Source: a virus
Taxonomy: Duplodnaviria; Heunggongvirae; Uroviricota; Caudoviricetes
Direction: 5' to 3' (one strand)
IMG/VR virus record: IMGVR_UViG_2698536570_000009
Location: 1-42,963 of that record
DNA length: 42,963 nucleotides
Shown: one piece after another, positions 2,725-6,843 of the stretch
How the letters are laid out: every line of letters begins with the position of its first letter
Numbering within the stretch: the stretch's first letter is position 1
The notes under the pieces: generated by a model
Databases searched by the model: none
Seen by the model: only the letters and a program-made list of their open reading frames with translations
Told to the model about the DNA's origin: nothing
Made by a program: the position numbers and the translations under genes

Positions 2725-2940
2725 TCATCGTTCCTTAAAGACGCCGTTCAACATGCCGATCGCCAGGCTTAAATGAGTCGGTGTGAATCCCATCAGCGTT
2801 ACCGTTTCGCGGTGCTTCTTTAGTACGCTACGGCAAATGTCATCGACGTTTTTATTCGGAAACTGCTGTCTGGCTTTTTTGATTTCAGAATTAGCCTGAC
2901 GGGCAATGCTGCGAAGGGCGTTTTCTTGCTGAGGTGTCAT
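2725..2940 (-). CDS. hypothetical phage protein (71 aa, start MTPQQEN)
   Basis: ATG at 2938-2940 overlaps the TGA of the upstream small ORF (ATGA coupling); the ORF-track 93-aa version (start 3006) is an N-terminal extension lacking an SD. Confidence 0.5.
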   Translation of the reverse strand: MTPQQENALRSIARQANSEIKKARQQFPNKNVDDICRSVLKKHRETVTLMGFTPTHLSLAIGMLNGVFKER

Positions 2941-3020
2941 TGAACAAGCCCCATGTCGGCAAGCATAAGCACACAGAATATGAAGCCCGCTGCCAGAAAA
3001 ATGCATTCAGTGGCTGTCAT
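2937..3020 (-). CDS. small hydrophobic peptide (27 aa, MTATECIFLAAGFIFCVLMLADMGLVQ), single predicted TM helix
   Basis: Below the ORF-track cutoff; found by hand translation. Start ATG overlaps the stop of the upstream gene and its stop overlaps the start of the downstream gene (ATGA at both ends). Confidence 0.35.
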   Translation of the reverse strand: MTATECIFLAAGFIFCVLMLADMGLVQ

Positions 3021-3208: not shown

Positions 3209-3369
3209 ACCGCCTCCCGTTTATTATTTATCTTCTCAGCCAGCCGCTGTGCTTTCAGTGGATTTCTGATAACAGAAAGGCCGGGAAATACCCAGCCTCG
3301 CTTTGTAACGGAGTAGACGAAAGTGATCGTGCCTACCCGGATATTATCGTGAGGATGCTTCATCGCCAT
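3181..3369 (-). CDS. hypothetical small protein (62 aa), uncertain
   Basis: ORF immediately downstream of exo on the same strand; overlaps the 3017..3208 ORF by 28 nt and the exo stop by 10 nt; no recognisable motif. Confidence 0.3.
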
Positions 3370-4046
3370 TGCTCCCCAAATGCAAAACCAATTTCAGCCA
3401 GTGCCTCGTCCATTTTTTCGATGAACTCCGGCACCATCTCGTCAAAACTCGCCATGTACTTTTCATCCCGCTCAACCACGACATAATGCAGGCCTTCACG
3501 CTTCATACGCGGGTCATAGTTGGCAAAGAACCAGGCGTCTTTTCCGGTTACCCACATGCTGTACTGCACCTGGGCCATGTACTCGGACTTAATGGCTTCG
3601 AAACCGCCGAGGCGGAATTTCATAAAGTCGCGGGAGGTGAACGGGCATTTCAATTCGAGGCCGAAATCGTTACTGCAAAGGCCGTCAGGGGAGCATGCAG
3701 TGCGCATGCTCTCGTCACGGAACAGGATCGGAGACTCCGTGACTTTCACGTCAGTAGTGAACTCGAAGAGGGTGCGGGCGTCTTCCTCGTACTGCTTGCC
3801 CCAGGCCAGAGCCTTGGCGTTAACCTCTGGCGCGACGCCGGTGCATACCTCGGCGAGTAGGGTGTGGAAGTAGGACATCTTCATGCCCGTCCATTTGGTG
3901 CCGGAGCGCGGCTTGGAAATGACGTTGTGAGCGTCAGAGGCAGTAATAACTCCGAGTCTCGCCCTTGCCCATGTCTCGCTGCCTTGCTCAATTTGTGCAA
4001 TTGGCCCAAATATTTGCTCAAATTTAATGAGCCACCTGTTATCCAT
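3360..4046 (-). CDS. exo: lambda-type exonuclease (Red-alpha / YqaJ-like)
   Basis: Near-identical blocks to recalled lambda Exo ('LRLGVITAS', '[32 protein letters not shown]', 'CSPDGLC', '[25 protein letters not shown]', C-terminal 'EIGF.FGEQWR'). Start taken at internal ATG 4044-4046 with SD 'AGGAGAGGA'; ORF-track start 4109 would overlap the upstream gene. Confidence 0.9.
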
Positions 4047-4659
4047 ATTTCCTCTCCTTTCGGCAGTTGGCTCTTGGCGGGATGCTAATCCCTCTATTGT
4101 TGTAGCCATGACACCATTTGTGGATGGTTGCTGATTTCACGCCAAAATGATTCGCCGCGGCTCCGGCGCTTTCAAAACGCAACCCATCAACAAACCAGTA
4201 AAACGATGTACTTCTGTTTTCCGCCTGCTTGGTAACCGTTGCCCATCTGCAATTGTCTTTTGAATACGGGCCTTCATTGTTCTTCCGATCTAGCTGATGC
4301 TTAGGCGTAGGAGGTGGCCCCATATCTTCAAGAAATAGCTCGAACGTCAGCCATCTTTCGCAGATACCGCGCTTACTGTATTTTTCGAAGTCTTTGTTGT
4401 TCGGGTTCGTGCAGCGGTTTTTCATTCCGCTCCAAATCCTGTAAACGCGGGTATTTCGCTGGCCGTGAGTGGCGTTTTTTCCTGCCATGCATCCGCAGCT
4501 GCTTATTGAACTGTTTTTAAGCTGATTTGCGGCTCTATAGCAGGAATTACCGCACACACAAAGGCATAGATACATCCTTCTACCTCTCAGCATGTGCGAG
4601 CATTCTTTGACGGTTAAGTGCCCATATTTTTCACCGGGCATAAGTGGATTGGCGTTCAT
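4039..4659 (-). CDS. HNH-like (homing-endonuclease-type) protein inserted between the recombinase and exo
   Basis: 206 aa; Cys/His-rich; block '[42 protein letters not shown]' resembles a block I recall from phage free-standing HNH endonucleases (family not verified). Start overlaps the recombinase stop (ATGA); ends 2 nt before exo start. Confidence 0.55.
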
Positions 4660-5573
4660 GCTGCCGCCTTTTGCCTGAGGAACCCGAGAGCCTTAACACC
4701 TTCCATTTCTGTCAGGTCGGCTGGCTGCGAGATAGGGCGTTTGAAAATGCGTGAACAGAGAGGGAGAAGATCGGCATCCCATGTCTTATCCAAAGAGACA
4801 AGGAGGTCGTTTATCTCTTTCTGCGTGGCTTCGCTAAGCGGCGTTATATCGCGCTCAGGCTGACGCTCTGCTGTAAAGTTGATACCTTCTTCGCCCTCGG
4901 TGTTAACGTGGTCTATGGCGGCGTCCAGGCGCTCACGGCGAGGCCAGTATTTTGCTGCCTGCTTCACGACCGTCTTGAGGATCATCTGCTCTTCATCGGT
5001 GACCCATGGACACTTCTTGCTATTGTCGGATTTGTACTTCTTCCACGCTTCTGAGCGGTCACGGATGGAGTAGATGGCATCGATGCGCATCGTATGGGTG
5101 AGGTAATCACCATCGTCAGTTTTTACCGTTACATACGCGCCTACGATGTCCCCGCGCTGCTCTTCAGTATCGAAGTCGTTGTAGATGTGGATTGGCGGCT
5201 TATCGAGCCCCTCGCGGCGGAACTGGTCGTTTCTTCGAACAATAGCCGACTGGCACCACTTAATGGCGCCAGACTGCTGCGCGATGTGCATCAGGCCCAT
5301 GTAACTGATGTCTAGGCAAATAGCCCCTTTACGCGGAACCAGGTAAGCCAGCTTCTGAGCTGGGTTTAGCGAAATACCGATAGCCGCAACGTTGATGATT
5401 GCGTTCTGTGTGCTGGTCTGGTTCTGGAAAGCGACTTTCGCGAGGTAGTCGTTGTTCTGAAATAGTTGGATGGCAAACTGGCTTTCCTTCGCCCACACCA
5501 TCCGCTCGTCTGTGGCCGCCTTCATGAAAAGCGGCTCCTGTTGTTTGACGAAATCAACAAGGGTTAAGCTCAT
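4656..5573 (-). CDS. single-strand annealing recombinase, RecT-like core with lambda Bet-like C-terminal tail
   Basis: N-terminal 230 aa show RecT-like blocks ('[10 protein letters not shown]', '[16 protein letters not shown]', '[24 protein letters not shown]'); C-terminal about 70 aa ('[12 protein letters not shown]...LDKTWD.DLLPLCS.IF...VKALGFL.QKAA') closely match the recalled C-terminus of lambda Bet. SD 'GGAGGGG' upstream. Confidence 0.85.
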
Positions 5574-5582
5574 AGCCCCTCC

Positions 5583-5864
5583 TTAAAATGGGCAGGTTGG
5601 ATGAAGGCGATCCCACTCTTCTTCGGCGCGGTCGTAACAGATGCGTGTGACATAGTCGTTATAGGCTTCCTCTGCCTTTTCACCGACTAGTGCCATTTGC
5701 GCTTCTTTTGGGAGAAACAGGCTACTCATTTGCAGAGCATATTTCGGGAACATGGCGATCAGTTCTTTCGCCCGGTCGTCGATCCACTTCTCTTTCTCGT
5801 CGGTGAGTTGCTGCTCAACCCACCGCCGATCTTCGATGCGGTCGTAAGTGAGGTATGCGTTCAT
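5583..5864 (-). CDS. hypothetical phage early protein (93 aa)
   Basis: ORF co-oriented in the leftward early operon; acidic; no family recognised. Confidence 0.5.
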   Translation of the reverse strand: MNAYLTYDRIEDRRWVEQQLTDEKEKWIDDRAKELIAMFPKYALQMSSLFLPKEAQMALVGEKAEEAYNDYVTRICYDRAEEEWDRLHPTCPF

Positions 5865-5871
5865 GGTTGCC

Positions 5872-6843
5872 TCAGTAATGAATTTTCGCGCAGGGGATCA
5901 GGTCATCTTTCAGAGCGGTAAGCACTTCGATAGCCTGCTCTCGGGTTAAGCTGGTTTGGCTGGTGAGCGCGTTAACGATGTTGGTGCCGACCGTCTTGCG
6001 GTGCTTAACGTCAGCTTCACGCTTTGCCTGCTCATCGGCGAGGCGCTTCTCTTCGGCCAGGCGGGCATCTTCGGCCTGTTTGGCCTTCAGGCGCTCGGCT
6101 TCAACCGCCGCGGCTTTTTCGCGTTCCGCCCGGGCTTCCGCTTCCTGCTTCTCGCGAGCTGCACGCTGTTCCGCTTCGACGCGCTGGCGCTCCGCCAGTT
6201 CAGCGCGGGCTTTCTCTTCGGCTTCACGGCGCGCTGCGGCTTCAATCTCCGCTTTGTGCTTCGCTTCGGCATCGCAGCGGGCTTGTTCTGCCGCTTCCTG
6301 TTTCAGCCGCTCATCACGTTCACGCTGAGCCTGTTCCGCCAGACGGCGCTGCTCTTCGCGGTCACGGTCAAAATCCTTGTTCATCAGTAGAGCCATTTCG
6401 TGGTCCGCTTCGAACTTGGCAGCCAGCTCCTGATCGAACCTGATGTTCATCTCCAGCGCTTCGGCGTGCATCGCGTTCATGGCTTCTTCAGCCTTAATGC
6501 GTTCCTGCTCGGCTTCCCATTCGGTGAGTGGGCGGCGGGTCGCATCGCGCAGCTCGTCGCAGGCATCAACGAATCGCTTAATTTCGGCCTCGGCAGGGCG
6601 TACAGCCTCTTTCAGGCGCTTCAGGTACTCACGGCCCGGCTTTTCGATTGCCGTCTTGCTGCGGGACACCTGCGCTGCCAGAGAGGCAACACGGTCACGG
6701 CCTTTCTTCGTGGACAGGTCCGGCACTTCGTTTACAGCCTGGCGGATTTGCTCAAGGTACGCGTCAAGGCCGCCCGCTACGTAAAGCACTGGGGCCTGTT
6801 CCGGCTTGATTTCGATGACAGTTAAGTCCGTTACTTCGCTCAT
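5872..6843 (-). CDS. coiled-coil protein with long A/E/R/K-rich repetitive central region
   Basis: 323 aa; strong SD 'AGGAGA' before ATG; central about 150 aa of EAERAA/KQEAE-type repeats; the GC-rich repeat generates spurious antisense ORFs 5956..6443. Confidence 0.6.
   Translation of the reverse strand: MSEVTDLTVIEIKPEQAPVLYVAGGLDAYLEQIRQAVNEVPDLSTKKGRDRVASLAAQVSRSKTAIEKPGREYLKRLKEAVRPAEAEIKRFVDACDELRDATRRPLTEWEAEQERIKAEEAMNAMHAEALEMNIRFDQELAAKFEADHEMALLMNKDFDRDREEQRRLAEQAQRERDERLKQEAAEQARCDAEAKHKAEIEAAARREAEEKARAELAERQRVEAEQRAAREKQEAEARAEREKAAAVEAERLKAKQAEDARLAEEKRLADEQAKREADVKHRKTVGTNIVNALTSQTSLTREQAIEVLTALKDDLIPCAKIHY

What the first reader, a model, noticed from the sequence alone, without database searches (positions are those of the whole stretch)
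4656..5573. Annealing recombinase combines a RecT-like core with a lambda-Bet-like C-terminal tail
The N-terminal 230 aa carry RecT-type motifs, whereas the last 70 aa are nearly identical to my recollection of the lambda Bet C-terminus, the region that contacts lambda Exo. The partner exonuclease here is lambda-type. This suggests domain-level mosaicism that preserves the Exo-interaction tail while swapping the annealing core.
Basis: partly seen in the sequence, partly recalled or inferred. Interest (0 to 1): 0.45.

Follow-up and report, generated by a model that had tools for sequence, protein, structure and literature searches.

The report
RecT-core annealase with lambda Bet tail
This prophage recombination gene joins a RecT-type DNA-annealing core to the small C-terminal domain that lambda Bet uses to dock onto lambda exonuclease. 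It is a 90% identical relative of the known phage phi80 recombinase, so the gene is ordinary, though the domain swapping it shows seems little discussed in the papers I could read.

Summary
ORF 4656..5573(-) encodes a 305-aa protein. Residues 31-213 match Pfam RecT and NCBIfam TIGR00616 (rect), not TIGR01913 (bet_lambda). Residues 229-304 are 66% identical to lambda Bet 180-255 (E 3e-32), the solved Exo/SSB-binding three-helix domain. That is similar, not "nearly identical".

The partner Exo (3360..4046) is 85% identical to lambda Exo. Every core interface residue defined in the 6M9K crystal structure is conserved on both partners.

Nucleotide homology between phi80 and lambda starts at the codon for A235 of the AERQPERD linker. 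It then runs unbroken through the C-terminal domain (CTD) and all of exo. The same CTD family sits on Bet, RecT and ERF cores, next to a lambda-family exonuclease in nearly every case examined. One RecT relative with no exo nearby has an unrelated tail.

The domain-mosaic reading is therefore supported. The gene itself is not new: it is 90% identical to phi80 RecT, which was shown genetically to be a recombinase, and close relatives are common in enterobacterial prophages.

In this window an HNH-like endonuclease gene is inserted between rec and exo.

Interest is modest. The accessible literature does not discuss a portable CTD, and the idea could help in designing chimeric recombineering proteins.

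The parts
4656..5573 (-). rec gene: 305-aa single-strand annealing protein, a close relative of phage phi80 'rec'/RecT (PHI80_38)
   Evidence: ORF listed. It is 90% identical to phi80 Rec over the full length and 98% identical to database proteins annotated 'recombinase RecT'.
4890..5573 (-). N-terminal annealing core, residues 1-228, RecT subfamily (Pfam match covers residues 31-213 = 4935..5483)
   Evidence: Pfam PF03837 E 1.3e-29. TIGR00616 is above its cut-off and bet_lambda gives no hit. tblastn relatives reach RecT proteins of Gram-positive phages. There is a weak PDB hit to Listeria RecT 7UB2.
4833..4889 (-). Linker, residues 229-247 ([19 protein letters not shown]). It contains the mosaic junction: DNA homology to lambda starts at about 4874, and identity to phi80 drops between about 4874 and 4849.
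   Evidence: blastn block boundaries. Per-60-nt identity profile. AlphaFold pLDDT is below 50 and there is no secondary structure for residues 224-247.
4659..4832 (-). C-terminal three-helix domain, residues 248-305, of the Red-beta CTD type. Pocket residues are L272, I276, F298 and L299, plus K302.
   Evidence: 66% identity to Bet 180-255. The model has helices 248-260, 265-277 and 289-304 with pLDDT 81-92. It superposes on the 6M9K and 8TG7 CTD chains at 0.4-0.6 A rmsd. Interface residues come from Caldwell 2019 and their conservation.
4039..4659 (-). Inserted 206-aa HNH-endonuclease-like gene between rec and exo. It is translationally coupled: ATGA overlap with the rec stop and 8-nt overlap with the exo start.
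   Evidence: PHROG 374 'HNH endonuclease' E 2e-50. Absent from phi80 and CobraSix, present in Klebsiella phage ST16-OXA48phi5.2 and in IMG/VR loci L043, L058 and L059.
3360..4046 (-). exo: 228-aa lambda-type 5'-3' exonuclease, the partner of the CTD. The helix-E ridge (lambda Q83-T95) lies at about 3756..3794.
   Evidence: 85% identity to lambda Exo. Pfam YqaJ. Q83, D87, T90, L91, F94, T95, L184 and Y186 are all conserved. RBS lies before the ATG at 4046.
5583..5864 (-). gamL: phi80-type host nuclease inhibitor, immediately upstream in the same operon
   Evidence: NCBIfam NF033500 phi80_GamL E 3e-44. Same position as in phi80.
5872..6843 (-). Homolog of phi80 agt/mog (annotated as anti-toxin for GamL), upstream operon member
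   Evidence: Megablast match and synteny with phi80 PHI80_40. PHROG 1376, unknown function.

Best explanation
The gene encodes a two-module single-strand annealing protein of the phi80 RecT type.

**Mechanism**
- The N-terminal ~228 residues form a RecT-subfamily annealing core. This core binds ssDNA, oligomerises and anneals complementary strands.
- A flexible linker follows, containing [11 protein letters not shown].
- The last ~60 residues form a Red-beta-type three-helix domain.
- I infer that this domain docks onto helix E of the lambda-type exonuclease encoded downstream. [quoted passage not shown]
- I also infer that the same pocket afterwards binds the C-terminal tail of host SSB, as described for lambda Red-beta.

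**Evolution**
- The CTD belongs with exo rather than with the core.
- Recombination within or next to the linker-coding DNA has placed the [CTD + exo] unit behind different cores (Bet, RecT, ERF).
- In this window the unit has been further split by an HNH-like endonuclease gene inserted exactly at the rec/exo junction.

**What is shown:** the domain composition, the homology boundaries, the conservation of interface residues, and the co-occurrence with exo.

**What is inferred:** physical binding to Exo and SSB. Annealing activity is also inferred for this protein; it rests on the genetic test of the phi80 protein, which is 90% identical.
For: **Domain assignment:**

**CTD structure:** the CTD model has pLDDT 81-92. 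It superposes on the 6M9K and 8TG7 CTD chains at 0.4-0.6 A rmsd over 61-64 residues.

**Interface in this window**:
- Red-beta L223, I227, F249, L250, Q252 and K253 correspond to window L272, I276, F298, L299, Q301 and K302.
- Exo Q83, D87, T90, L91, F94, T95, L184 and Y186 are all conserved.

**Interface across 121 CTDs and 109 Exos** (120 IMG/VR loci plus this window):
- F249, L250, Exo L91 and Exo F94 are 100% conserved.
- I227 and K253 are 99% conserved.
- L223 is L or V.

**Mosaic boundaries**
- phi80/lambda DNA homology starts at the A235 codon and runs through exo.
- Window/phi80 identity drops from about 96% to about 65% at the same place.

**Co-occurrence with exo**
- Of 120 IMG/VR contigs carrying the CTD motif, 89 have Bet cores and 28 have RecT-phi80 cores.
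- 115 of the 116 with enough downstream DNA have a lambda-type exo downstream, usually with a 4-nt overlap.

**Other cores with this CTD**
- ERF core plus CTD, followed by exo, in L006; ERF core plus CTD in P0030.

**CTD tracks Exo across 12 systems**
- CTD identity to lambda follows Exo identity regardless of core (Spearman 0.88, non-independent data).
- Tails of Yersinia and Vibrio RecT and of Vibrio and Oceanospirillum ERF proteins are remote CTD homologs by hhalign (96.5% probability, E 9e-10). Their exonucleases are 37-44% identical to lambda Exo.
- The RecT of phage mEpX1 has a core 59% identical to the window's and no exo within 2.5 kb. Its tail is unrelated (hhalign probability 0.3%).

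**Function:** phi80 RecT is required for phage-prophage recombination (De Paepe 2014, PMC3945230).
Against: - No binding or annealing experiment exists for this protein.
- Three peripheral contacts differ from lambda: Q226->R275, R229->K278 and E256->A305. The last five Bet residues are also missing.
- Within the RecT-type loci, CTD alleles and Exo alleles assort independently (Spearman 0.1). There is therefore no sign of fine-scale co-evolution, and the CTD is separable from exo.
- The broad CTD/Exo correlation rests on few, phylogenetically non-independent systems.
- The 'exo-less RecT has no CTD' contrast rests on one phage.
- The AlphaFold model of the core is unreliable (pLDDT below 50). 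Assignment of the core therefore rests on sequence profiles alone.
- The direction of transfer is unknown.
Confidence: 0.85

Rival explanations
1. No domain swap took place. RecT-type and Bet-type proteins inherited the CTD vertically from a common ancestor. The CTD simply evolved much more slowly than the annealing core.
For: Both cores belong to Pfam PF03837. The cores keep weak residual similarity (z about 4). Remote CTD homologs exist in distant RecT and ERF proteins, so the association of a CTD with such cores is old.
Against: - DNA-level homology of about 75% starts abruptly at one codon and continues through exo, with nothing detectable upstream.
- Cores that are 51-59% identical to the window's carry tails ranging from 50% identity to lambda's CTD to unrelated.
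- The same high-identity CTD sits on an ERF core, which is a different Pfam family.
- Window and phi80 cores are 99.6% identical, but their CTDs are only 62% identical.
Confidence: 0.05
2. The CTD is kept mainly as a host SSB-tail binding module. Its linkage with exo is incidental gene order and not an Exo-docking function.
For: The Red-beta CTD binds the SSB C-terminal peptide through the same pocket (PDB 8TFU/8TG7; Caldwell 2019). In lambda, mutations at L223, F249 and K253 also reduce ssDNA recombination, which needs no Exo.
Against: - The Exo helix-E ridge is conserved alongside the pocket.
- The CTD diverges in step with Exo across phages of Gammaproteobacteria. From general knowledge, the SSB C-tails of these hosts are nearly invariant.
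- The E. coli phage mEpX1 RecT has no nearby exo and lacks the CTD.
- The two roles are not exclusive, and the main explanation includes both.
Confidence: 0.08
3. The chimera is an assembly artefact or a one-off aberrant recombinant in this window.
For: None found.
Against: The same 303-309-aa architecture is present in the complete phi80, CobraSix and ENT47670 genomes. It is also present in the best 120 database hits from many enterobacterial genera and in 28 IMG/VR contigs.
Confidence: 0.01

Closest known systems
Phage phi80 Rec / 'RecT-phi80' (PHI80_38, AFV29174.1)
   Same: - Same length (305 aa) and 90% identity overall; the core (residues 1-228) is 99.6% identical.
- Same operon order agt - gamL - rec - exo.
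- Shown genetically to drive phage-prophage recombination (PMC3945230).
   Different: - The CTD allele differs: 62% identity, with DNA about 65% identical from nt ~720. The window's allele is the one in Enterobacter phage CobraSix (95% protein identity).
- The window has a 206-aa HNH-like gene between rec and exo, and a replaced 5' end of exo.
Lambda Bet (Red-beta), C-terminal domain (PDB 6M9K, 8TFU)
   Same: - Residues 229-304 are 66% identical to Bet 180-255.
- Three-helix bundle, with pocket residues L, I, F, L plus K253 conserved.
- The partner Exo is 85% identical, with an intact helix-E ridge.
   Different: - The annealing core is not Bet-type: no TIGR01913 hit and no BLASTP similarity.
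- Peripheral contacts Q226, R229 and E256 are changed, and the tail is 5 residues shorter.
E. coli Rac prophage RecT (partner RecE)
   Same: Same Pfam and TIGR RecT family. Same presumed annealing mechanism.
   Different: - Not an ortholog: 69.6 bits against a cut-off of 296 for the RecT equivalog model NF007351.
- Rac RecT pairs with RecE and does not work with lambda Exo (PMC5052646). This protein instead carries the lambda Exo-docking domain and sits next to a lambda-type Exo.
ERF-core annealases with the same CTD (P0030; IMG/VR L006 3992..4747)
   Same: The CTD is 55% identical to the window's. In L006 a lambda-type exo (75% identical to lambda Exo) overlaps the stop codon.
   Different: The core is Pfam ERF PF04404, not RecT.

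Membership tests
RecT family (Pfam PF03837 / NCBIfam TIGR00616 'rect') | Profile score above the curated cut-off over the annealing core | tested here: met
   PF03837 scores 103.6 bits against a cut-off of 24, over residues 31-213. TIGR00616 scores 55.7 bits against 52.65.
RecT family (Pfam PF03837 / NCBIfam TIGR00616 'rect') | RAD52-like beta-beta-beta-alpha annealing fold | tested here: inconclusive
   The AlphaFold model of residues 1-240 has pLDDT mostly below 50 because the alignment was shallow. Foldseek still ranks Listeria RecT 7UB2 first for this part, but with TM 0.2-0.3.
RecT family (Pfam PF03837 / NCBIfam TIGR00616 'rect') | ssDNA annealing / recombination activity | not testable with these tools
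   Only indirect evidence: the 90% identical phi80 protein is required for phi80-prophage recombination (PMC3945230).
Rac RecT orthologs (NCBIfam NF007351 equivalog) | Score at or above the equivalog cut-off of 296 bits | tested here: not met
   69.6 bits.
Lambda Bet (NCBIfam TIGR01913 bet_lambda) | Bet-type N-terminal annealing domain | tested here: not met
   No hit at E <= 0.01, whereas lambda Bet scores 169.5 bits and the Klebsiella phage Bet 131.8 bits. BLASTP finds no core similarity.
Red-beta C-terminal domain (no Pfam model; PDB 6M9K/8TFU) | Sequence homology to Bet residues ~183-261 | tested here: met
   66% identity, E 3e-32. phmmer against PDB gives E 9e-28. Pfam has no model for it.
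Red-beta C-terminal domain (no Pfam model; PDB 6M9K/8TFU) | Three-helix bundle | tested here: met
   Helices 248-260, 265-277 and 289-304 with pLDDT 81-92. Rmsd is 0.4-0.6 A to the 6M9K, 8TG7 and 8TFU chains, with TM 0.90-0.95 normalised by target.
Red-beta C-terminal domain (no Pfam model; PDB 6M9K/8TFU) | Hydrophobic pocket (L223, I227, F249, L250) and K253 | tested here: met
   The window has L272, I276, F298, L299 and K302. These positions are 96-100% conserved in 121 CTDs.
Red-beta C-terminal domain (no Pfam model; PDB 6M9K/8TFU) | Cognate lambda-type Exo with helix-E ridge (T90, L91, F94, T95) encoded downstream | tested here: met
   Exo 3360..4046 is 85% identical to lambda Exo and all ridge residues are conserved. 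It is separated from rec by one inserted gene.
Red-beta C-terminal domain (no Pfam model; PDB 6M9K/8TFU) | Physical binding to Exo and to the SSB C-tail | not testable with these tools
   Needs a pull-down, ITC or multimer modelling. The structure tool here folds single chains only.

The most novel reading that the evidence does not exclude
The Red-beta-type three-helix CTD may not be a 'Bet' feature at all. It may be a portable adaptor that belongs evolutionarily with lambda-family (YqaJ) exonucleases.

On this reading, nature has joined the adaptor+exo unit to at least three annealase cores (Red-beta, RecT, ERF) by recombination at the linker. The core and the Exo/SSB-docking function would then be freely recombinable.

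This predicts two things:
- phi80-type RecT and the ERF-CTD proteins work with lambda Exo.
- Grafting the CTD onto other annealases would make them compatible with lambda Exo.

The 2019 structure paper states that the CTD has no significant sequence homology to other proteins. A 2023 review says it is unknown whether RecT-type annealases use a similar CTD.
Probability: 0.55. Interest if true: 0.5.

Novelty: new member of a known kind. Interest (0 to 1): 0.35.

Why it matters
**Evolution.** The gene is a clean, base-resolved example of phage mosaicism at a domain boundary inside a gene. It indicates that partner specificity in two-component recombinases (annealase plus exonuclease) sits in a small exchangeable module.

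**Recombineering.** Heterologous annealase/exonuclease pairs such as Rac RecT with lambda Exo do not work. Here natural RecT-core and ERF-core proteins already carry the lambda Exo/SSB-docking domain. They are ready-made templates for chimeric annealases that could be paired with lambda Exo in enterobacteria.

**Annotation.** Databases label these proteins either 'RecT' or 'Bet', depending on which part the annotator matched. The two-module description resolves that inconsistency.

Tried and rejected
- **CTD-only search of the 5.8-billion-protein index:** it returned only short fragments and said nothing about architectures. The exhaustive representative search and tblastn against phages replaced it.
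- **First degenerate DNA pattern:** it was one N short, which cost one scan of viral contigs. The corrected pattern worked.
- **AlphaFold with 27 close homologs:** it gave a good CTD but an unusable core, so I did not use the model to classify the core.
- **Fine-scale co-variation of CTD and Exo alleles within RecT-type loci:** not found, Spearman 0.1. I therefore dropped any claim of allele-level co-evolution.
- **'It is simply Bet':** rejected.
- **'It is an ortholog of Rac RecT':** rejected.
- **Papers not held:** Rotman et al. 2012 (phi80 genome) and Iyer et al. 2002 could not be read. I cannot exclude that the chimeric nature of phi80 Rec was already remarked on there.

Full report
**1. 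What is there**

ORF 4656..5573 on the minus strand encodes 305 aa. An AAGGAGG ribosome-binding site lies just upstream. The gene sits in a leftward early operon with the order agt/mog-like (5872..6843), gamL (5583..5864, NCBIfam phi80_GamL E 3e-44), rec, a 206-aa ORF (4039..4659), and exo (3360..4046). Apart from the 206-aa ORF, this order matches phage phi80. The window as a whole is a mosaic lambdoid phage or prophage of an enterobacterium, and no sequenced phage matches it closely over its length.

**2.

- The N-terminal part is RecT-type. Pfam RecT matches residues 31-213 (E 1.3e-29). NCBIfam TIGR00616 'rect' is above its cut-off, and the Bet model TIGR01913 gives no hit.
- Lambda Bet aligns only to residues 229-304. 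These match Bet 180-255 at 66% identity and 83% positives with no gaps, E 3e-32.
- Against PDB sequences the tail hits the Red-beta CTD entries 8TFU and 6M9K (E 9e-28 and 1e-20). The core weakly hits Listeria RecT 7UB2 (E 0.006).
- An AlphaFold model is confident only for the tail (pLDDT 81-92). The tail forms three helices and superposes on the crystal CTD at 0.4-0.6 A rmsd.
- Exo is 85% identical to lambda Exo.

Two corrections are needed. First, 66% identity is not 'nearly identical'. Second, lambda Bet's own core also belongs to Pfam RecT. The two cores are therefore remote relatives within one superfamily (forced global alignment 26% identity, z about 4), not unrelated folds.

**3. The mosaic is demonstrable at the DNA level**

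- phi80 and lambda share one continuous block of nucleotide homology: 75% over 908 nt. It starts at phi80 rec nt 703 / lambda bet nt 556, which is the codon for the A of the shared linker motif AERQPERD. It runs through the CTD and the whole exo gene, with nothing detectable upstream.
- The same boundary appears between close relatives. The window and phi80 rec genes are about 96% identical over nt 1-700 and about 65% identical over nt 720-900. At the protein level the cores are 99.6% identical and the CTDs 62%.
- The window's CTD allele is the one in Enterobacter phage CobraSix (95% identity).

**4. The CTD goes with exo, not with the core**

The CTD family is narrow. Only 26 representatives at E <= 1e-3 were found among 1.84 billion protein clusters. 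Even so, it sits on at least four kinds of core:

| Core type | Example |
|---|---|
| Lambda Bet | lambda |
| Divergent Bet-type | Klebsiella phage ST16-OXA48phi5.2 |
| RecT-type | phi80 group; Stx-phage ArgO145 group (core 54% identical to the window's) |
| Pfam ERF | P0030; IMG/VR locus L006 |

I scanned IMG/VR for the motif KTW[D/E]xxLLPxC and recovered 120 contigs. Of these, 89 carry Bet cores and 28 carry phi80-type RecT cores. Of the 116 with enough downstream DNA, 115 have a lambda-type exo downstream, normally overlapping the stop codon by 4 nt.

Across 12 systems, CTD identity to lambda tracks Exo identity irrespective of core (Spearman 0.88; few and non-independent points).

| System | CTD identity to lambda (%) | Exo identity to lambda (%) |
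|---|---|---|
| phi80 (RecT core) | 74 | 85 |
| Window (RecT core) | 66 | 85 |
| ArgO145 (RecT core) | 50 | 87 |
| Klebsiella phage (Bet-like core) | 47 | 82 |
| L006 (ERF core) | 46 | 75 |
| Yersinia phage vB_YenM_22 (RecT core) | 30 | 41 |
| Vibrio / Oceanospirillum phages (RecT and ERF cores) | marginal or no BLASTP hit | 37-44 |

The tails of the four distant systems (vB_YenM_22 and the three marine phages) are still recognisable as CTD homologs by profile-profile comparison (hhalign 96.5%, E 9e-10). By contrast, phage mEpX1 has a RecT core 59% identical to the window's and no exo within 2.5 kb. Its tail is unrelated (probability 0.3%).

Within the RecT-type loci, CTD alleles and Exo alleles assort independently. 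The CTD/exo gene junction is therefore also a recombination point, and I claim no allele-level co-evolution.

**5. Why exchange is tolerated**

The 6M9K structure paper defines the interface. The Exo helix-E ridge (T90, L91, F94, T95) inserts into a CTD pocket (L223, I227, F249, L250). Peripheral contacts involve Q226, R229, Q252, K253 and E256. Single mutations at Exo L91 or F94, or at Bet L223 or F249, abolish the complex.

- In the window the pocket and K253 are conserved as L272, I276, F298, L299 and K302. All listed Exo residues are conserved too.
- Only Q226->R, R229->K and E256->A differ.
- Across 121 CTDs and 109 Exos (120 IMG/VR loci plus this window), F249, L250, Exo L91 and Exo F94 are invariant.

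A constant interface would let any allele pair work together. This explains the free reassortment.

**6. Mechanism**

The best-supported reading is a RecT-core annealase carrying the Red-beta adaptor.

- The CTD docks on the Exo trimer, so that the core is loaded onto the nascent 3' overhang.
- The same pocket then binds the SSB C-tail at the replication fork. This is the hand-off model proposed for lambda.
- Annealing and recombination activity is inferred from the phi80 protein, which is required for phi80-prophage recombination (PMC3945230).
- Binding to Exo and SSB is inferred, not shown.

**7. Known or new**

The gene is a close relative of phi80 Rec. Very similar proteins (75-98% identity, 303-309 aa, annotated 'recombinase RecT') occur in Salmonella, Leclercia, Citrobacter, Kluyvera, Enterobacter, Klebsiella, Cronobacter and E. 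coli. It is therefore a new member of a known kind.

I could not find the two-module reading in the literature:

- The 2019 CTD structure paper says the CTD has no significant homology to other proteins.
- A 2023 review says it is unknown whether RecT-type annealases use a similar CTD.
- De Paepe 2014 reports only an overall 32% identity between phi80 RecT and Red-beta.
Prior mention cannot be excluded.

**8. Side observation**

The rec/exo junction is an insertion hot spot.

- The window carries a 206-aa HNH-endonuclease-like gene there (PHROG 374, E 2e-50). It is translationally coupled on both sides. It comes with a replaced 5' end of exo.
- The same cassette lies behind a Bet-type gene in a Klebsiella phage.
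- Other RecT-type loci carry a 95-aa Cys-rich ORF or a 68-69-aa ORF at exactly the same position. A Yersinia phage carries a different HNH gene between rec and exo.

**Verdict**

The gene is ordinary and belongs to a known family. The general point about a portable Exo-docking module is a modest but useful insight.

Noticed in passing
window 4039..4659 (-): A 206-aa HNH-endonuclease-like gene (PHROG 374, E 2e-50) is inserted exactly between rec and exo. It has an ATGA overlap with the rec stop and an 8-nt overlap with the exo start. It is absent from phi80 and CobraSix. It is present at 90% DNA identity in Klebsiella phage ST16-OXA48phi5.2, behind a Bet-type gene, and in IMG/VR loci L043, L058 and L059. 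It looks like a homing-type mobile gene.
   Followed up: partly
window ~4000..4046 (-), first ~15 codons of exo: In the two phages that carry the 206-aa insert, the Exo N-terminus is replaced and is 2 aa longer ([18 protein letters not shown]... instead of MTPEIILARTGIDV...). The insert therefore brought its own flank, which suggests co-conversion.
   Followed up: partly
IMG/VR loci L067, L072, L107 (95-aa Cys-rich ORF); L075, L100 and Cronobacter phage ENT47670 L005 ~2800..3001 (68-69-aa ORF, unannotated): Other small genes sit at precisely the same rec/exo junction, each starting with an ATG that overlaps the rec stop. 8 of 26 RecT-type loci have an insert here, against 0 of 86 Bet-type loci. 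Yersinia phage vB_YenM_22 has a different HNH gene between its rec and exo genes.
   Followed up: partly
window 3360..4109 (-): The exo reading frame stays open upstream to an ATG at 4109 (249 aa). The ATG at 4046 has the strong RBS (AAAGGAGAGG) and matches homologs, so the 228-aa product is the likely one.
   Followed up: yes
window 5872..6843 (-): A 323-aa, very charged (E/A/R/K-rich) homolog of phi80 agt/mog, which is annotated as the antitoxin for GamL. It has no Pfam or NCBIfam family, only PHROG 1376 of unknown function. The local GC content peaks at 60%.
   Followed up: no
protein P0020 (E. coli chromosome, 113 aa): A Gam N-terminus fused in frame to the Bet CTD. It is presumably a deletion remnant in a cryptic prophage and is annotated as a Gam family protein.
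   Followed up: no
IMG/VR locus L080: A Bet-type reading frame of 464 aa with no separate exo hit downstream. It may be a fusion or a frameshift.
   Followed up: no
GenBank MW057783 'Campylobacter phage CJLB-4' (hit H35): This 48.4-kb record gives the same bet CTD match score as lambda. It looks like lambda DNA rather than a Campylobacter phage.
   Followed up: no
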